From Escherichia coli (lineage in GTDB: Bacteria; Pseudomonadota; Gammaproteobacteria; Enterobacterales; Enterobacteriaceae), in the NCBI RefSeq assembly GCF_029227855.1, contig NZ_CP074356.1: DNA of 64,000 nt; one strand, given 5' to 3'. Position numbers and translations under genes: made by a program. How positions within the stretch are numbered: position 1 is the first letter of the stretch; every line of letters starts with the position of its first letter. Positions 10,144 through 32,338 of this stretch are shown here, one piece after another. The notes beneath the pieces were generated by a model that searched no databases, was not told where the DNA came from, and saw only the letters and a program-made list of their open reading frames with translations.

Positions 10144-11263
10144 CTCCCCGCAAGGACTGACGCCAGATAGTTTCTGTCCATGGCTGCTTTTCGCATCTTA
10201 CGTCTTAACCCTGCCTTGAATACCTTATCATTCGTCAAAATATTAATAGCGATGTGCCGTATCCCTGAAAATAATTCTGCTGCATTTCCTCTTCTTATTT
10301 TGCAGTCGTCTTCATTCATTACCACGTCCAGACGCCAGTGCAGCTTATTCTCCACGTGCCAGTGGTTTCGGATTGCTGTGGCGAACTTCTCTGCGGTTAA
10401 ATCAGCAGAACTAATATAATATCTGACCGCCATTTCTGGCTCTTTCTTTTGTTCTGCTATTATTGACCGAAAGGAGACTGCCACGCATAATTTCTTCAGA
10501 CCTTTCCATTCAAACGTGAAATCAATAAGTTCATCAGGGACATCGCAAACAATGTGAAGACGGATTTCTTCTCTGCCGTGACTCTTTTCACTCATTGCGT
10601 AACTGTCATGCTCTGGATTATTTAATTCTTTCAGCGGAAATTCTCGAAGGCTTTATTTAGCCGCCCCTGGTTTCCTTTTACAGCGAATAAATAATCACCT
10701 CCCTGTTTTTGTATCTTCTCTGCAATATCTTTCTGGCAACCCATCGCATCAGTTGTGATGATTTTTCCTTTAATATCCAGCATGTTAAGAAGTTCTGGGA
10801 TAGCTGTAATTTCATTGGATTTCTCATCCGTCCTGATCTGTCCGATGACCAGACTGTGCATTGTTGAGAACGCACTAATGACATGAATCGCTCCCTTGCG
10901 GCGACTCTTGTCATAAGAATGCCGGAGTGTTTTTCCATCAATTGCGATGACGTCTTTATCATCTGAAGTATGGCAATCTCGCATCCAGTTAATAAAGCAC
11001 TCGTGAAATTTTGCAGGACTGATACAGGATACAACTCTGGCGATGGTATCGTGAACAGGAATACCATTTTAAAAATCACCGTATTGTTTTAAAAAATCGA
11101 GATGTGTTTCCCCAAAATCCTCTATATCTTCCCAACCTTCCGCACCCGAAATAACAGCACAAATAGTCAACAGTAGAATATCCGATAATTTATGTTCCAC
11201 TTTCCAGGCTTGTCTGTAATCGGGGATAATAGAAATATGCCCCATCAATTTTTTAAGTTCTAT
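10131..11263 (-). pseudogene. ISAs1-family (H-repeat associated) transposase, decayed
   Basis: Three collinear pieces of an H-rpt protein: start codon is ATA not ATG (11261..11263), in-frame TAA after ..KQYGDF, and a roughly 4-nt deletion frameshift between 10595 and 10631. Confidence 0.8.
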
Positions 11264-11483: not shown

Positions 11484-11861
11484 TCACTCCTGACCAAAAT
11501 CTTTCCACACTAATGCATGAGACTTTGATTTATCACCCAAAAATTTACTTACATCTTTCCAAAGTAAAGAATTGCTATCGGTCGCAGTGACTATTGCCTC
11601 TATAAGCCCTGTAGCTACAACTGTGGCCAATTCATCATCAATCGAGACCATACCATCTTCGACATGTTTAAATATTTTTTCTCTTTCAATATCACCCATT
11701 TCATAAAAATTTTTTACAATCGTTTTTCCAATCTGAGAGAACAACATAACCACCGGTGGAGTTTCTGGATGCCAGTATTCATTAGCTAATGAGACTGTCT
11801 CAGACAAAACAGTGGAAAACGATGCCATTTTTTCTATATAATTAGCAATATATTGGTTCAT
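11484..11861 (-). CDS. putative immunity protein for the Rhs C-terminal toxin
   Basis: 125-aa acidic ORF whose ATG overlaps the Rhs stop (TAATG); AT-rich; no TM helix or signal peptide. Confidence 0.6.
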   Translation of the reverse strand: MNQYIANYIEKMASFSTVLSETVSLANEYWHPETPPVVMLFSQIGKTIVKNFYEMGDIEREKIFKHVEDGMVSIDDELATVVATGLIEAIVTATDSNSLLWKDVSKFLGDKSKSHALVWKDFGQE

Positions 11862-14800
11862 TACTTGCCTCCCAAAGCATTCTGTAAATCCTGAAGAACG
11901 TTTTCTGCTGCTGCTCGATCCCCTGGAGATGCTGTTGGATTCTTATCCAACCAATCCTGTAAAGCCCTTGTATAATCCTGTGCTTTCAATACATGTCCTC
12001 TACCACCAACTTTTTCACCTGTGGCCAATTCATAACGAACAGCATCTGCTGTGCTTCCACTTCCTACTTTTGCATTTGGCCGATAAAGATCGTCTATAAT
12101 ATTTTTCAAATTTGAATCTGTAACGTCAGGTTTTCCCATCTTCTGTCGCAATTCATCTTTATACCGTTCATGCTGCATACGATCTCTTGCGCTATTCTCA
12201 TCTTCTGGTCCCCATCCTCCCGGGCTTCCCGTACTGCCACCACCCAGGCAGTTCTTCTCTTCCTCCGTCAAATCCTTCCCGACATTTGGATTCTCTTTTG
12301 ATGAATCATCATTTCCAAACACGCTGGAAAAAGCACCATAGGGATCTCGCCAGAATTCCATTTGACTTTGTGCATTTAATAATTCGGCTTCACCCTGCAT
12401 CTCCATACTTTTCTCAATCGCGTCCCCAACAGCCTCGCGATTGTTGTATATTATTATACCACCACCAATAACCACCGTACCGACTGCCGCACCGACTAAC
12501 ATCCCCGGAGGGCCTCCTACCGAACCGATCTCTGTACCTACTTCAGAACCAGTTCCCATGGCAGTTAATGCTCCTGCGCCCAACGCCGCACTTAATCCCA
12601 GCGGATCCAGCCGTTGCACCGGGTTCAGTGGATACGCATACAGGTTCCATCCCCCCTTCAGCCCAATCGGATCCTGGGTGATATACCTCCCCTGTAGCGG
12701 GTCATAGTACCGGTGACGGTTGTAGTACAGCCCCGACTCCTCATCATACTGCTGCCCCGGCAGACGGAGTGACTGTTGAAGGTGCTGCGTGCTTTCCTCT
12801 CCCAGCAGGTTTCCCCACTCGTCATACTCCCCGCGCCACGCCGTTTCCCCTTCCGGGCTGATAAGCGCCTGCGGCAGCCCACGGTGGTCACAGTGGTAAA
12901 GATGAAGTTTCCTCTCCGGGATGTATTCCGCCTCCAGTTGCGCCGCCATCTGTTCCGCCGTCAACCCACACTGTGCAAGCCACTGCTGGCTTTCTTCACT
13001 CACGCTGCCCTGCCGCAGTTCCCGCTCCAGCCTCCCCAGCATCACCGCCAGCTCCGCCGGTAGCGTCACACCCGTGTCCTCCTGCAACACCTCCGCCAGG
13101 CTACGGTGCCGCGCCTTCGCCTGTTCGCCATTCTCTGTTTCGATTCTCAGGAGCGGCGTGAAGCTCCCCGGCTGGTATACCGTCTGGATACGCGTGGTGT
13201 CGGTCTGTACCGTCGTCAGCCTGTCGCCGTCCCACCCGTACCAGGTCACCTCCGGTTTACGCGACAGCGACATCCACCCCGTCAGGTCACGCTCCCGCCG
13301 CCACACCCGTTTTCCCGTCCGGCGGCCCAGCGGGTCATAGAGGTAGCGGCTCTCCACCTGTGGCTCGCCGTGCTGTATCCGCGTGTAGAACACCAGGCGG
13401 TGCTGGCTGTCGTAATGGTAGTGGTGCGTCCGCTCGTCGTGCATCCGTATCACCCCTTCCGGGATACGGTCCGTCTTCTCCGCCAGCCTGCCGTATTCAT
13501 CGTAGCGGTAGACATAGTGCGCATCTTCCGTGATGCGGTTATCCGGCCACGCCGTGAGGGTGCTGTCCGGGTGCAGTTCCGGGTCCGGCAGCCGGTTTCC
13601 TGCCGGGTCCGTCGCATACGGGATATCAATGTCCAGGTTCGCTGCCGTGGTGTGGACGCCCGTCAGCCTTCCCGTGTCGCTGTAACGGTACTCCCGGCTC
13701 TCCTGCGGGCCGCTGATGCGAATTAGCTGTCCGTTGTCGTTCCAGTCGTAGTCACGGTCAAGCTGCGGAAGGTTCAGGTGCCTGCTCCGGAGCTGGCCGC
13801 TGGTATTCCAGGCGGTGGCAAGCTCATATGCCTCCCCGCCGAAGCTGCGGGCCGTCTCACGGTGCAGCCGGTCCCGCGTGTACTCGACCAGTGGCGTACC
13901 ACCCAGCTTCATTCCCGCAAGATAACCGCTGCCATACGTCAGCCACTCCACCGGCGGCAGACCGTCCAGCTCCTGACGGGTCGCCAGCCCCTGTTCGCTG
14001 TACGCGTGCTTCGTCTCATGCTCCCACAGCATCTCCCCCGTCTCCGGGTTCTCCACCGTCTGCCGTTCGCCCGTCAGGCGGCCTTTATCGTCGTGGCCGT
14101 AGTGGACCGCCACACGGTGGCCTTCGCTGATATGGCTGATTTCTGTCAGCCAGCCGTGCTCATCATACTGCCACTGCTCCGCCGGGTCGCCGTTCACCGT
14201 CCGGTGCGTGATGCGGTCCGACGCATCGTAATGCCAGAGGGTGATAAGTCCCTCGTCTTCACTGTGGACAAGCTGCCCTGTGGCGCTGTACCGGTAACGC
14301 TGCGTCCTGCCGTCAAAGCCGCGCTGCTCCGTCAGCCTGTCCACCGGGTCATACCGGAACGTGGACTGGCTGCCGTTCTCGTTGGTCAGCACGGTGATGC
14401 GCCCGGCAGCGTCATACCCCATGCTGCGCGTCAGACCGCCTTCCGTCACACTCACCGGACGCCCGCGTTTATCATATTCGATGGTGCTGCGTTTACCGTC
14501 CGGTGATATCGTTGCTGTCAGGTCGCCTGCGGCGCTGTACTCATAACGGGTTTCACGCCCCTGCGCATCCTTCTGACTGACCAGTTGGCCTCGCGGGTTA
14601 TAACTGCTGTAAGTGCTGATGCCTTCCTCCCGGTGAACGGCGATTTGTTGACCGTACCGGTCATACTCATACCGCGTCATGTACCCCGAGCAGTCCGTGA
14701 AGGCCCGAAGCTGACCGTACCGGTTTCGCGTTATTCTCCGCGTCACCCCGATTCCGTCTTCCACCGCGCCGGGCAGGCTACTGCGGGGGGAGTCATAAAA

Positions 14801-16360
14801 CCAGCGCGTAATGTTACCGTTGCGCGAGATCTCTTCTGCCAGTCGGCCCTGACGGTCATATTTCCGGCTGCTGCGTAAACCATCCGGATATGTCACTGAA
14901 GTCAGTTGCAACTGGCTGTTGTAACCATACCGTACCGTCCTGCCGTCCGGCAGTATCACTGAAGTCAGCTTTCCAGACGCCATATGCAGCCGGTACTCCG
15001 TCCGCCGTCCTGCCGCATCCGTCTGCGCCTTCAGCCTCCCCGCCTCATCATACTCGCTGCGGGTGATGCTCCCGTCGGCATGCTCCTTCTTCACCACACG
15101 CTTCAGGCCACCCCCGCCTTCCGTGTACAGCACCTCCCGCCGGTTCAGGCTGTCCGTGATGGTCACACGGTCCTGCCCGTACTCAAAGCGGTAGTCCAGC
15201 CCCTCCGGGTTGACCTGCTCCGTCACCCGCCCGGTATCATCATACCGGTAGCGGCTCTCCGGCCTCCCTGCATAATGGTGCGCCACCATCCGCCCGGCGT
15301 GCTCCGCATCATAAGTAAACCCGCGCACCTGCGTCCCGCTGCGGTCATACACCGCCCGCAGTTCTCCGCTGGCCGTGTACGTATAGCGCGCCAGCGGCGC
15401 AGTCGGCTGTTCATCCGGGTATGCCGGGTCGTGTGTCAGCCACACCGCCTCCAGCCGGATACCGTTATCGGCACCGTATTCTGTACCGGCGGGCAGCGTA
15501 TCGGGGAAAACCTGAGAAGAGGAAACAGAACGGGGACCGGCTGGAGAAGATAAAGAAGAGGCGCGCTGTTTACGGAAGGCTTCCGCCCGCTGCGCCTGCG
15601 TGCTCAGCGCCAGGTGAAAACAGCGGCCCGCGCCGTCCGTCACCCCCGTCACCGCACCCGCCACGTCACCCTCTGCCGCCCGGTGGAAGGCCAGCGTCCG
15701 CCCGAAGCCGTCCACCACGCCCGTCAGCACCCGGTATGCGGGCGGCTCCGGCGGCAGCACCTCGTCCGCCCCCGGCACCCGCTCCGGCCAGCCGAGCACC
15801 AGCCACTGCCCGGTTGTGCTGGCAGCCATCATATAGATGTGTGGACTCAGACGGACCGCTTCCGGCAACGCCCGCCAGAGCCGCGCAAGCGGGTGGCCTT
15901 TGTGCTGTTTCAGCACCCCGCACCGCGCCAGCCAGAACGACTCGCTGCGGCTGTAGCTTATCTCGCCGGGAAACAGGGGTTCAAAGTGAATGCTCCTGCC
16001 GCCGCTGTCGTTGAGTATCAGGCCTTCATCGCGTATCTGTAAGCGGATATCGAAGGGGGCTTTCCAGCCGGGACCAAACACCCCCACCGGCGCGGGCGTC
16101 CTGGTCCGGTAGCTGCTGTAGGCGCGGAAAAGAACAAACGGCAGCGGGCCGGACAGTGCCAGGTCGGTTTCAGCAGGCAGCACCTTCGCTCCCAGCAGCG
16201 GGTTTACCGGATTGCCATATTTCGGCGTGGCTTCCCCTGTGGGACACACCGAGCAGGCCACACCGGTTGGCGCACCTATCAGCACCCCTGCTGAACCCTG
16301 CACAATATCCAGTCCCTTGCGGGTCATGTCACCCTGCCGCGCCGCCGGTTTTCCACCCAT
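11861..16360 (-). CDS. PAAR domain-containing Rhs family polymorphic toxin (T6SS effector)
   Basis: 1499 aa: N-terminal PAAR-like region, long YD/RHS repeat core, hallmark [10 protein letters not shown] (DPLGL at 12593..12607), then a 243-aa C-terminal domain (11864..12592). Confidence 0.9.
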
Positions 16361-29542: not shown

Positions 29543-32338
29543 ATGATCCAGATTGATCTTCCCACGCTGGTAAAACGGCTGAACCTGTTCTCCCGCCAGG
29601 CGCTGGAGATGGCCGCCTCTGAATGTATGAGTCAGCAGGCAGCGGAAATTACCGTCAGCCATGTGCTTATTCAGATGCTCGCCATGCCACGCAGCGACCT
29701 GCGGGTTATTACCCGCCAGGGCGATATTGGCATGGAAGAGTTGCGCCAGGCGCTGACGGTGGAGAACTACACAACTGCCCGTTCTGCGGACAGCTACCCG
29801 GCATTTTCCCCGATGCTGGTTGAGTGGCTGAAAGAGGGCTGGCTGCTGGCGTCGGCTGAGATGCAGCACAGCGAATTGCGTGGCGGCGTGTTGCTGCTGG
29901 CCCTGCTGCATTCGCCGCTGCGTTATATACCGCCTGCTGCCGCCCGGTTGTTGACCGGCATTAACCGTGACCGTCTGCAACAGGACTTTGTACAGTGGAC
30001 ACAGGAGTCGGCGGAATCAGTCGTGCCGGATGCAGACGGTAAAGTCGCAGGCACACTGACGGACGCTGCTGACACCCTGCTTGCCCGCTACGCCAAAAAC
30101 ATGACCGCAGACGCCCGTAACGGCAGGCTTGACCCGGTACTGTGCCGCGACCACGAAATCGACCTGATGATCGACATTCTCTGCCGCCGCCGCAAGAACA
30201 ACCCGGTGGTGGTGGGCGAAGCAGGCGTGGGTAAAAGTGCCTTAATCGAAGGGCTGGCGCTGCGCATCGTGGCAGGCCAGGTGCCGGACAAACTGAAAAA
30301 CACCGATATCATGACCCTTGACCTAGGCGCATTGCAGGCCGGGGCGTCGGTGAAGGGCGAATTCGAAAAACGCTTCAAGGGGCTGATGGCGGAGGTCATT
30401 TCCTCTCCGGTGCCGGTCATTCTGTTTATTGACGAAGCACATACCCTGATTGGCGCGGGCAACCAGCAGGGCGGGCTGGATATCTCCAACCTGCTCAAAC
30501 CGGCGCTGGCGCGCGGCGAACTGAAAACCATCGCCGCCACCACCTGGAGCGAATACAAAAAATACTTCGAGAAAGATGCCGCCCTGTCGCGCCGCTTCCA
30601 GCTGGTGAAGGTCAGCGAACCCAACGCCGCCGAAGCCACCATTATTCTGCGTGGTCTGTCGGCGGTCTATGAACAGTCTCACGGCGTGCTGATTGATGAT
30701 GACGCCTTGCAGGCCGCAGCAACGCTGAGCGAACGTTATCTCTCCGGGCGTCAGTTGCCGGACAAAGCCATTGATGTGCTGGATACCGCCTGCGCCCGCG
30801 TCGCCATTAACCTTTCCTCGCCGCCGAAGCAAATCTCGGCGCTGACCACTCTGAGCCACCAGCAGGAGGCGGAAATTCGCCAGCTTGAGCGCGAGCTTCG
30901 CATCGGGCTGCGTACCAACACCTCACGGATGACCGAGGTGCTGGTGCAGTACGATGAAACGCTGACGGCGCTGGATGAACTGGAAGCGGCCTGGCATCAG
31001 CAGCAGGCGCTGGTCCGGGAGATTATCGCGCTGCGCCAGCAGTTGCTGGGCGTGGCAGAAGACGATGCGGCGTCGTTGCCGGACGCAGATGCCGCGGAGG
31101 ATACGCCGCCAGAGTCAGAGTCAGAGTCAGAGTCAGAGTCAGAGTCAGAGTCAGAACAGGATAATACCGGTGCCGTACCGGCTGATGAGGCCGACAGAGA
31201 ACAGCCGGAAGAGACCGCTGAAACAGTTTCCCCGGTACAGCGGCTGGCCCAGCTCACTGCCGAACTGGACGCCCTGCATAACGACCGGTTGCTGGTCTCC
31301 CCGCACGTCGATAAAAAACAGATTGCGGCGGTGATTGCCGAATGGACCGGCGTGCCGCTCAACCGCCTGTCGCAGAATGAAATGTCGGTCATCACCGACC
31401 TGCCGAAATTGCTGGGCGACACCATCAAAGGCCAAGACCTGGCGATTGCCAGCCTGCATAAGCATCTACTGACCGCACGCGCCGACCTGCGTCTTCCGGG
31501 ACGCCCGCTCGGTGCGTTCCTGCTGGCTGGCCCCAGCGGTGTGGGTAAAACCGAAACCGTCCTGCAACTGGCAGAGCTGCTCTACGGCGGTCGCCAGTAC
31601 CTGACCACCATCAATATGTCCGAATTCCAGGAGAAACACACCGTCTCGCGGCTGATTGGTTCGCCTCCGGGCTACGTTGGCTACGGTGAAGGCGGCGTAC
31701 TGACCGAAGCGATTCGCCAGAAACCCTACTCGGTAGTACTGCTCGATGAAGTGGAAAAAGCGCACCCGGATGTGCTCAACCTGTTCTACCAGTCGTTCGA
31801 TAAGGGCGAAATGGCAGACGGTGAAGGCCGCCTGATTGACTGCAAAAATATCGTCTTCTTCCTGACGTCCAACCTCGGCTACCAGGTAATAGTCGAGCAC
31901 GCCGATGACCCGGAAACCATGCAGGAAGAACTGTATCCGGTGCTGGCCGACTTCTTCAAACCTGCCCTGCTGGCGCGTATGGAAGTGGTGCCGTATCTGC
32001 CGCTGTCGAAAGAGACGCTCGCCACCATTATCGCCGGAAAACTGGCCCGTCTGGATAACGTGCTGCGCAGTCGCTTTGGTGCAGAAGTGGTCATTGAACC
32101 GGAAGTGACGGACGAAATCATGAGCCGCGTCACCCGCGCGGAAAACGGCGCGAGGATGCTGGAATCGGTCATCGATGGCGACATGCTACCGCCGCTCTCG
32201 CTGCTGCTGTTGCAGAAAATGGCGGCTAACACGGCGATTGCCCGGATTCGGTTGTCGGCGGTGGACGACGCATTTACGGCAGACGTGGAAGATGCTCAGA
32301 ACGACGAGTCCGTCACAAAGGATGAAACGGTTTTATGA
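29543..32338 (+). CDS. clpV: T6SS AAA+ ATPase ClpV (TssH)
   Basis: 931 aa from ATG 29543 (RBS AAGGA); two Walker A motifs (GEAGVGKS, GPSGVGKT); track ORF has an upstream extension. Confidence 0.95.
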   Translation: MIQIDLPTLVKRLNLFSRQALEMAASECMSQQAAEITVSHVLIQMLAMPRSDLRVITRQGDIGMEELRQALTVENYTTARSADSYPAFSPMLVEWLKEGWLLASAEMQHSELRGGVLLLALLHSPLRYIPPAAARLLTGINRDRLQQDFVQWTQESAESVVPDADGKVAGTLTDAADTLLARYAKNMTADARNGRLDPVLCRDHEIDLMIDILCRRRKNNPVVVGEAGVGKSALIEGLALRIVAGQVPDKLKNTDIMTLDLGALQAGASVKGEFEKRFKGLMAEVISSPVPVILFIDEAHTLIGAGNQQGGLDISNLLKPALARGELKTIAATTWSEYKKYFEKDAALSRRFQLVKVSEPNAAEATIILRGLSAVYEQSHGVLIDDDALQAAATLSERYLSGRQLPDKAIDVLDTACARVAINLSSPPKQISALTTLSHQQEAEIRQLERELRIGLRTNTSRMTEVLVQYDETLTALDELEAAWHQQQALVREIIALRQQLLGVAEDDAASLPDADAAEDTPPESESESESESESESEQDNTGAVPADEADREQPEETAETVSPVQRLAQLTAELDALHNDRLLVSPHVDKKQIAAVIAEWTGVPLNRLSQNEMSVITDLPKLLGDTIKGQDLAIASLHKHLLTARADLRLPGRPLGAFLLAGPSGVGKTETVLQLAELLYGGRQYLTTINMSEFQEKHTVSRLIGSPPGYVGYGEGGVLTEAIRQKPYSVVLLDEVEKAHPDVLNLFYQSFDKGEMADGEGRLIDCKNIVFFLTSNLGYQVIVEHADDPETMQEELYPVLADFFKPALLARMEVVPYLPLSKETLATIIAGKLARLDNVLRSRFGAEVVIEPEVTDEIMSRVTRAENGARMLESVIDGDMLPPLSLLLLQKMAANTAIARIRLSAVDDAFTADVEDAQNDESVTKDETVL
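31111..31155 (+). repeat. (GAGTCA)7 in-frame hexanucleotide tandem repeat inside clpV
   Basis: AGAGTC x7, encoding (Ser-Glu)7 in an acidic linker between the two AAA+ modules. Confidence 0.9.

What the first reader, a model, noticed from the sequence alone, without database searches (positions are those of the whole stretch)
31111..31155. In-frame (GAGTCA)7 microsatellite inside clpV
A perfect hexanucleotide repeat encodes (Ser-Glu)7 within an acidic linker (..DTPPESESESESESESEQDN..) between the two AAA+ modules. Hexamer units keep the frame, so slipped-strand changes would vary linker length rather than switch the gene off. Such tracts are unusual inside a conserved ATPase.
Basis: seen in the sequence. 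Interest (0 to 1): 0.45.

Follow-up and report, generated by a model that had tools for sequence, protein, structure and literature searches.

The report
Known typing repeat inside E. coli ClpV
The perfect six-base repeat is real and changes copy number between E. coli strains (about 1 to 39 copies) without ever breaking the ClpV gene, but it is the DNA marker already used for strain typing (most likely MLVA locus CVN016), and it sits in a floppy surface loop where length changes are probably harmless.

Summary
Observation confirmed. (GAGTCA)7 lies at window 31112-31153 (periodic array 31110-31155, 100% pure) and is in frame in tssH/clpV (29543-32338). It encodes (Glu-Ser)7, ClpV residues 524-537.

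The window is E. coli, and the gene belongs to the T6SS-2 cluster at tRNA-Asp.

Copy number varies widely. Sequenced alleles have 1, 2, 3, 7, 10, 11, 13, 14, 18, 23, 25 and 39 units. Genomes with identical flanks range from 7 to 23 units. O157:H7 alone ranges from 3 to 6. Every change is a whole number of 6-nt units and the ORF is always intact.

The locus is already known. Two published generic E. coli MLVA primers match the window exactly. The 520-bp amplicon fits the published formula (size-478)/6 = 7, which identifies the locus as CVN016.

Structurally, the tract is not a simple inter-module linker. It lies in a predicted disordered acidic loop (residues 502-563) at the tip of the coiled-coil middle domain. 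That loop varies from 4 to 71 aa across 117 diverse ClpVs.

Best explanation: replication slippage in an insertion-tolerant loop, with little or no effect on function. A tuning role for ClpV has not been tested.

The parts
31110..31155 (+). Hexanucleotide VNTR: (GAGTCA)7 at 31112-31153, with partial units on each side; encodes (Glu-Ser)7, ClpV residues 524-537
29543..32338 (+). tssH / clpV coding sequence (931 aa), the T6SS AAA+ ATPase
   Evidence: TIGR03345 1118.7 bits; Pfam AAA, AAA_lid_9, AAA_2 and ClpB_D2-small; start and stop match the PGAP tssH annotation of the closest genome
30827..31279 (+). Coding region of the middle (M) coiled-coil domain, residues 429-579 (helices 429-453, 460-501 and 564-579)
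   Evidence: AF2 model with 117-sequence alignment, pLDDT 89.7; alignment to ClpB 1QVR
31046..31231 (+). Coding region of the acidic, predicted disordered loop (residues 502-563; pLDDT below 50 at 517-555) that hosts the tract; it has no counterpart in the ClpB alignment
30819..30837 (+). Exact match to published MLVA primer CGCCGCCGAAGCAAATCTC
   Evidence: primer table in PMC8143711
31317..31338 (-). Exact match to published MLVA primer GCAATCACCGCCGCAATCTGTT; predicted amplicon 30819-31338 = 520 bp = 478 + 7x6
   Evidence: formula in PMC8143711

Best explanation
The tract is a slippage-prone hexanucleotide VNTR inside clpV (tssH) of the E. coli T6SS-2 cluster. It is the locus already used for strain typing in the 10-locus generic E. 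coli MLVA, most likely CVN016. A single ancestral GAG-TCA unit, still single in E. albertii and many E. coli, was duplicated by replication slippage. Once several identical units existed, the array expanded and contracted in whole 6-nt units. Because the unit is two codons, every allele stays in frame, so only the number of Glu-Ser dipeptides changes. The array is tolerated because it lies in a long, acidic, predicted disordered loop at the distal tip of the ClpV middle domain, a position where ClpV proteins in general differ greatly in length. The effect on ClpV function is therefore most likely small or nil, and the variation is best seen as near-neutral. Shown here: the repeat, its frame, its polymorphism, its codon purity, the primer identity, and the predicted loop location. 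Inferred: slippage as the mechanism (by analogy with measured E. coli VNTRs) and near-neutrality.
For: - Alleles read at sequence level have 1, 2, 3, 7, 10, 11, 13, 14, 18, 23, 25 and 39 units, all in frame.
- Among the 60 best matches (flanks at least 99.8% identical), spans differ only by multiples of 6, giving 7-39 copies.
- A spread sample of 55 genomes has a mode of 1-2 copies, and 13 of 55 have 7 or more.
- O157:H7 genomes carry 3, 4, 5 and 6 copies.
- All units are GAGTCA, apart from one GAATCA in the 39-copy allele. TCA is the rarest Ser codon elsewhere in clpV (2 of 50) and GAG is the minor Glu codon. This points to DNA-level expansion of one founder unit, not selection for a peptide.
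- E. albertii and other Escherichia clades have a single ES.
- Both MLVA primers match exactly. The amplicon is 478+6n for nearly all in-silico alleles. CVN016 is reported with offset 478 (PMC8143711), with a 475-bp '0-repeat' product in ST131 (PMC3877011), and with 1-15 repeats, null alleles and Nei diversity 0.70 (PMC3519732).
- The AF2 model (pLDDT 89.7) puts the tract in a loop at 502-563, with pLDDT below 50 at 517-555.
- ClpB 1QVR aligns on both sides of this region but not across it.
- The equivalent loop is 4-71 aa (median 20) in 117 diverse ClpVs.
- E. coli O157 VNTRs mutate by whole units at 4.4e-5 to 1.8e-3 per generation, faster above about 13 units (PMC3777172).
Against: - No functional data exist for any allele, so neutrality is inferred only from tolerance (intact ORFs) and from the loop's variability.
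- Long acidic loops recur in the closest ClpV subfamily although their sequence is not conserved. This could mean that the loop's charge or length matters.
- Some lineages hold very long, pure arrays (29-39 units), which a purely neutral model with a contraction bias would not obviously predict.
- Two secondary papers print these primers under the name CVN017 rather than CVN016. The original 2012 description could not be read.
Confidence: 0.8

Rival explanations
1. Tuning knob: the number of Glu-Ser units adjusts ClpV activity. For example, it could change the reach, charge or docking of the M-domain tip, and hence ATPase regulation or sheath recycling speed. Slippage would then supply heritable, reversible variation in T6SS-2 firing on which selection acts.
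For: - In ClpB the M-domain is a regulatory element (established knowledge), and the tract sits at its tip.
- The closest ClpV subfamily keeps long, net-acidic loops despite sequence turnover.
- Expansions arose on at least two flank backgrounds (CCGCCA...GAACAG and CAGCCA...GAGCAG).
- Very long alleles persist in a group of genomes.
Against: - About half of the sampled genomes have only 1-2 units, and B2-type alleles have none.
- The loop is predicted to be disordered and is highly length-variable across the family.
- Units are codon-identical and use non-preferred codons.
- No paper in the searched library links this tract to a phenotype.
Confidence: 0.1
2. Classical phase-variable contingency locus: slippage switches clpV, and hence T6SS-2, on and off.
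For: It is a pure simple-sequence repeat inside a gene of an accessory weapon system, which is the setting where such switches occur in other bacteria (established knowledge).
Against: - The unit is 6 nt, i.e. two codons.
- All 14 sequenced alleles are in frame.
- Every span difference among about 155 listed genomes is a multiple of 3, and almost all are multiples of 6.
- PGAP annotates an intact CDS even at 39 copies (2988 nt).
Confidence: 0.02
3. Regulatory phospho-site array: the Ser residues in an acidic context are phosphorylated and feed into post-translational control of the T6SS, for example through the FHA protein TagH encoded in the same cluster.
For: tagH (an FHA domain protein) lies in the cluster. 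The tract supplies 7 to 39 serines flanked by glutamate.
Against: - No kinase or phosphatase gene is annotated in the cluster or in the 50 kb around it.
- FHA domains bind phosphothreonine, not phosphoserine (established knowledge).
- Many functional-looking alleles have only 0-2 Ser at this site.
Confidence: 0.03
4. Assembly or sequencing artefact: the differences in copy number reflect errors in repeat resolution, not biology.
For: Simple repeats are error-prone in some sequencing chemistries.
Against: - The alleles come from complete genomes.
- Same-study isolates share alleles: CFSAN061763 and CFSAN061768 (937 bp), WR3-3 and WR14-2 (943 bp), AR_0006 and AR_0015 (1069 bp), and JCH8249, JCH767 and GON1437 (901 bp).
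- Differences are exact multiples of 6.
- PCR fragment sizing in independent MLVA studies finds the same kind of polymorphism.
Confidence: 0.01

Closest known systems
CVN016 locus of the 10-locus generic E. coli MLVA (GECM-10; Lobersli, Haugum and Lindstedt 2012, as cited in PMC3877011, PMC5217547 and PMC8143711)
   Same: Both primers match the window exactly, the unit is 6 bp, and the amplicon is 478+6n. The locus is highly polymorphic, with null alleles in strains that lack it. In-silico allele range and behaviour fit the reports: 1-15 repeats in STEC, ST38 isolates split apart, and a '0' or null result in ST131.
   Different: Nothing differs at the DNA level; this is the same locus. The typing papers I could read do not mention that it lies in clpV, where in the protein it falls, or what it might do. 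Two secondary papers label the primer pair CVN017. I attribute this to swapped labels, because only this pair gives 478+6n.
Hexanucleotide VNTRs of E. coli O157:H7 MLVA (e.g. O157-10, Vhec loci)
   Same: Same organism, same unit size, and changes in whole units. Slipped-strand mispairing is the accepted mechanism, and longer alleles are more unstable (PMC3777172).
   Different: Those loci were measured experimentally, whereas no mutation rate has been measured for this one. This tract is an in-frame coding repeat in a conserved ATPase.
Simple-sequence contingency loci (phase variation by frameshifting repeats, as in Haemophilus and Neisseria; from established knowledge)
   Same: A pure short tandem repeat inside a gene, mutating by slippage.
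   Different: The unit is a multiple of 3, so there is no on/off switching. All observed alleles are in frame.
ClpB/Hsp104 middle domain, motif 2 (e.g. T. thermophilus ClpB, PDB 1QVR)
   Same: ClpV aligns to ClpB on both sides of the region (E = 3.4e-151), and the tract lies within the equivalent coiled-coil insertion in the first AAA+ module.
   Different: ClpB residues 470-496 face a 67-residue acidic, disordered segment in this ClpV. ClpV acts on the contracted T6SS sheath rather than working with DnaK on protein aggregates (established knowledge).

Membership tests
ClpV / TssH (T6SS AAA+ ATPase, TIGR03345) | Scores above the curated equivalog cutoff | tested here: met
   1118.7 bits against a cutoff of 884.95; ClpB and ClpA models fall below their cutoffs
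ClpV / TssH (T6SS AAA+ ATPase, TIGR03345) | Two AAA+ modules with conserved P-loop and Walker B residues, plus a ClpV-type N-domain | tested here: met
   Pfam AAA (224-335), AAA_lid_9, AAA_2 (655-816) and ClpB_D2-small. Invariant G228/G230/K231, D297, G666/G668/K669 and D735/E736 in the 117-sequence alignment. The N-domain matches V. cholerae ClpV 3ZRI at E = 2.4e-33.
ClpV / TssH (T6SS AAA+ ATPase, TIGR03345) | Encoded within a T6SS core gene cluster | tested here: met
   Cluster order tssB-tssC-tssE-tssF-tssG-tagH-tssJ-tssK-tssL-tssH-vasI-tssA-tssM-vasL-hcp, next to tRNA-Asp, in the 99.2%-identical genome. Clusters at tRNA-Asp have the T6SS-2 organisation (PMC8715443).
GECM-10 MLVA locus CVN016 | Both published primers anneal, in convergent orientation, around a 6-bp repeat | tested here: met
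   Zero mismatches at 30819-30837 (+) and 31317-31338 (-)
GECM-10 MLVA locus CVN016 | Amplicon size = 478 + 6 x repeats | tested here: met
   520 bp gives 7.0. In-silico amplicons of 484-604 bp give integers from 1 to 21. The other primer pair gives 279 bp with no 6-nt repeat.
GECM-10 MLVA locus CVN016 | Polymorphic, with null alleles, in strain collections | tested here: met
   1-39 copies; the locus is absent from 2690 of 5426 complete genomes. This matches the published behaviour.
GECM-10 MLVA locus CVN016 | Name assigned to these primers in the original description (Lobersli et al. 2012) | not testable with these tools
   The original paper is not in the library. Two secondary tables print the pair as CVN017, which conflicts with the size evidence.
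Phase-variable (on/off) simple-sequence contingency locus | Changes in repeat number shift the reading frame or alter a promoter | tested here: not met
   The unit is 6 nt and lies inside the ORF. All alleles are in frame.

The most novel reading that the evidence does not exclude
Glu-Ser copy number at the tip of the ClpV middle domain acts as a heritable, reversible tuning knob for T6SS-2. It would alter sheath recycling or firing frequency, and lineages such as the ST38-like group (7-39 units) would be exploring this axis under selection.
Probability: 0.1. Interest if true: 0.55.

Novelty: already known. Interest (0 to 1): 0.22.

Why it matters
For typing, it explains what one of the more discriminating generic E. 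coli MLVA loci physically is: an in-frame repeat in the T6SS-2 ATPase. It also explains why the locus gives null results in lineages that lack T6SS-2, such as most of ST131.

For T6SS biology, nature has already produced an allelic series of ClpV with 0 to 39 Glu-Ser insertions at the M-domain tip. This is a ready-made test of whether that part of ClpV matters. If the alleles behave identically, the loop is a safe site for inserting tags. If not, it would be a rare bacterial case of a coding repeat that tunes a molecular machine.

For annotation, long alleles lose the tssH product name in RefSeq, which could cause T6SS-2 to be under-called.

Tried and rejected
- Single-sequence AF2 gave an unusable model (pLDDT 37.9). 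It was replaced by the alignment-based model.
- Literature searches linking clpV to MLVA or VNTR, or the ClpV middle domain to repeats, found no paper that describes this tract.
- I suspected a recombination or deletion breakpoint at the tract, because some genomes match only from window 31146 onward. It is simply a more divergent tssH allele (85.8% identity, one ES unit, shorter loop) that megablast could not extend.
- I tested whether hairpins drive instability. The coding strand forms only a weak, mismatch-interrupted hairpin (-4.7 kcal/mol at 7.7 units, -15.3 at 18 units) and the other strand forms none. This is at most a minor contributor.
- I first read the primer label as meaning the locus is CVN017. 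I rejected this on amplicon arithmetic, on the published 475-bp CVN016 product, and because the alternative primer pair flanks a CRISPR-like remnant beside tRNA-Ser with no 6-nt repeat.
- The ORFs overlapping the tract in other frames or on the other strand (QSQSQS and SDSDSD) are by-products of the repeat, not genes.
Full report
**1. Observation**

The window reads CA(GAGTCA)7GA at 31110-31155. TRF reports period 6, 7.7 copies, 100% matches and score 92, the top array in the window. A regular-expression scan finds the seven exact GAGTCA units at 31112-31153, and no other perfect repeat of 4 or more copies with a unit of 4-9 nt in the 64 kb. The 46-nt period-6 identity run compares with a mean of 13.6 and a maximum of 19 in 200 shuffles, and with 14 elsewhere in the window.

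The tract is in frame in a long + strand ORF. Its codons are GAG-TCA, so it encodes (Glu-Ser)7 followed by Glu. The ORFs that overlap it in other frames (QSQSQS, SDSDSD) are by-products of the repeat.

**2. The gene and its setting**

The ORF is ClpV/TssH. TIGR03345 scores 1118.7 bits against a cutoff of 884.95, while the ClpB and ClpA models fall below their cutoffs. Pfam finds both AAA+ modules, the lid and the D2-small domain. The N-domain matches the V. cholerae ClpV N-domain structure 3ZRI.

The window is E. coli. 2736 of 5426 complete genomes carry this segment. The window is 99.17% identical over 48 kb to strain GON1437. That genome's annotation places the gene at window 29543-32338 (931 aa), inside a full T6SS cluster beside tRNA-Asp. 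Clusters at tRNA-Asp have the T6SS-2 organisation, and the ST131 complex mostly carries only T6SS-1 (PMC8715443). With this start codon the tract is ClpV residues 524-537.

**3. Polymorphism**

A 901-nt query around the tract matches spans of 862 to 1093 bp in other genomes. I fetched fourteen alleles and read them at sequence level:

- 1 unit: JNEC-KY204. A B2-type APEC allele has GAGGCA (Glu-Ala) instead.
- 2 units: W60.
- 3 units: HS, and O157:H7 strain 3384.
- 7 units: the window and GON1437.
- 10 units: O111:H8.
- 11, 13, 14, 18, 23 and 25 units: other strains.
- 39 units: DA33137.

All alleles are in frame. The 39-unit allele is annotated as an intact 2988-nt CDS.

Among the 60 best matches (flanks at least 99.8% identical), span differences are all multiples of 6, which gives 7-39 copies. 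Genomes with 100%-identical flanks carry 7, 13, 14, 15, 16, 18, 19 and 23 copies.

An evenly spaced sample of the whole ranking, using the MLVA amplicon as query, gives a mode of 1-2 copies (28 of 55 genomes), and 13 of 55 have 7 or more copies. O157:H7 genomes carry 3, 4, 5 and 6 copies.

Isolates from the same study share alleles: CFSAN061763 and CFSAN061768, WR3-3 and WR14-2, AR_0006 and AR_0015, and JCH8249, JCH767 and GON1437. The locus is therefore stable over short times and variable between lineages, which is how a typing VNTR behaves.

E. albertii and other Escherichia clades have a single ES in an otherwise conserved acidic segment. The array therefore expanded within E. coli, and it did so on at least two different flank backgrounds.

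**4. Mechanism**

Every unit is GAGTCA, apart from one synonymous GAATCA in the 39-unit allele. TCA is the rarest Ser codon elsewhere in clpV (2 of 50) and GAG is the minor Glu codon (22 against 49 GAA). This purity, in non-preferred codons, points to amplification of one founder unit at the DNA level, not to selection for a peptide.

For other E. coli six-base VNTRs, serial-passage experiments show changes of whole units attributed to slipped-strand mispairing. Rates are 4.4e-5 to 1.8e-3 per generation and rise for alleles above about 13 units (PMC3777172). I infer the same process here; it was not measured for this locus.

From general knowledge, MutS handles loops of about 1-4 nt well and 6-nt loops poorly, which would help such arrays escape repair. 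The coding strand can form only a weak, mismatch-interrupted hairpin (-4.7 kcal/mol at the window's length, -15.3 at 18 units), and the complementary strand forms none. I treat this as a minor factor at most.

**5. Already a known marker**

The primers GCAATCACCGCCGCAATCTGTT and CGCCGCCGAAGCAAATCTC, from the 10-locus generic E. coli MLVA, match the window with no mismatch at 31317-31338 (-) and 30819-30837 (+). The predicted amplicon is 520 bp.

The published size formula (PS-478)/6, listed for CVN016, gives exactly 7. It also gives integers for the in-silico amplicons of 484-604 bp. The 481-bp B2-type amplicons and two partial-coverage matches (463 and 469 bp) do not fit. An independent paper reports a 475-bp CVN016 product scored as '0 repeats' in ST131 (PMC3877011). 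That matches the 481-484-bp alleles with no repeat or a single unit.

Other published behaviour fits this locus:

- CVN016 has 1-15 repeats, null alleles and Nei diversity 0.70 in STEC (PMC3519732).
- CVN016 has diversity 0.70 in O26:H11 (PMC4612136).
- The extra GECM-10 loci split ST38 isolates into singletons, while CVN017 was never detected in ESBL isolates (PMC5217547).

Two secondary papers print these primers under 'CVN017'. The pair they print as 'CVN016' flanks a CRISPR-like remnant next to tRNA-Ser(GGA) and infA. It gives a 279-bp product with no 6-nt repeat. I conclude that the labels are swapped in those tables and that this locus is CVN016. The original 2012 paper could not be read.

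**6. Where the tract lies in the protein**

T. thermophilus ClpB (1QVR) aligns to query positions 179-501 and 569-891. The query was translated from 29540, so annotated residue numbers are one lower. Query 502-568 is left facing only ClpB 470-496.

The single-sequence AF2 model failed (pLDDT 37.9). With a 117-sequence alignment the model is confident (pLDDT 89.7, pTM 0.78). It shows M-domain helices at 429-453 and 460-501, a loop without regular structure at 502-563 (pLDDT below 50 at 517-555), and a helix at 564-579. The tract therefore sits in the middle of a disordered, strongly acidic loop at the tip of the coiled-coil middle domain. It is not in a plain linker between the two ATPase modules.

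Across 117 ClpVs drawn from 50%-identity clusters, the segment aligned to residues 497-567 is 4-71 aa long (median 20). The long versions are low-complexity and mostly net acidic. Only the E. coli protein has a tandem peptide repeat of 6 aa or more. The position is thus a general insertion-tolerant hotspot, and the microsatellite is a local peculiarity.

**7. Interpretation**

The best-supported reading is a near-neutral slippage VNTR in an insertion-tolerant loop (confidence about 0.8).

- On/off phase variation is excluded by the unit size and by the alleles observed.
- A phospho-regulatory role has no support. No kinase is annotated nearby, FHA domains prefer phosphothreonine, and many alleles have almost no Ser at this site.
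- A tuning role for ClpV cannot be excluded, because the M-domain is regulatory in ClpB and acidic loops recur in the closest subfamily. There is no positive evidence for it, and I found no paper that addresses it.

**8. Verdict**

The feature is already known as a typing marker. Interest is low to moderate. The one open and testable question is whether ES length affects ClpV function.

Noticed in passing
window 30956-30987 (clpV, about 125 nt upstream of the tract); L017 701-732: A 32-nt spacer in the type I-E CRISPR array of E. coli MS 21-1 (NZ_CP146670.1) is identical to this clpV segment. MS 21-1 has no other match to the clpV query, so it appears to lack this gene segment. The spacer was found in only this one of 5426 complete genomes. 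The bases next to the protospacer (GGC on the + strand) do not form the canonical AAG PAM.
   Followed up: partly
tssH in related genomes: The RefSeq/PGAP product name changes from 'type VI secretion system ATPase TssH' to 'AAA family ATPase' for most alleles with 14 or more ES units (spans of 943 bp or more). One 943-bp allele (strain Ch1) keeps the tssH name. Long alleles may therefore be missed in annotation-based T6SS surveys.
   Followed up: no
L016 5373-5651 (IMG/VR contig); not in the window: The MLVA primer pair printed as 'CVN016' in two papers flanks a CRISPR-like remnant (GTTCACTGCC[AG]TACAG[AG]CAG-type repeats) beside tRNA-Ser(GGA), upstream of infA. It gives a 279-bp product with no 6-nt tandem repeat. 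The CVN016 and CVN017 primer labels therefore appear to be swapped in those tables.
   Followed up: partly
window about 11860-16360 (from L015 33554-38054) and about 9800-11260: In the 99.2%-identical genome GON1437, the Rhs core protein gene downstream of hcp-vgrG is annotated as frameshifted, and it is followed by an ISEc1 transposase and a transposase fragment. The cluster's Rhs effector region may therefore be decayed. I did not check whether the window carries the same frameshift.
   Followed up: no
window about 1-5600 (from L015 44337-49914): The closest genome annotates, at this end of the window, a frameshifted lpcA (gmhA), a HicA/HicB toxin-antitoxin pair and a truncated flhA-like gene. 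The first ~1.9 kb of the window is only 95.9% identical to that genome, against 99.2% for the rest.
   Followed up: no
L018 (FDAARGOS_1289 tssH): A more divergent tssH allele class (85.8% nucleotide identity) has a single ES unit and an acidic loop shortened by about 9 aa upstream of the tract (…GVAEDTDAVVDTPPESEQDN…). The loop therefore also varies by indels outside the microsatellite.
   Followed up: yes
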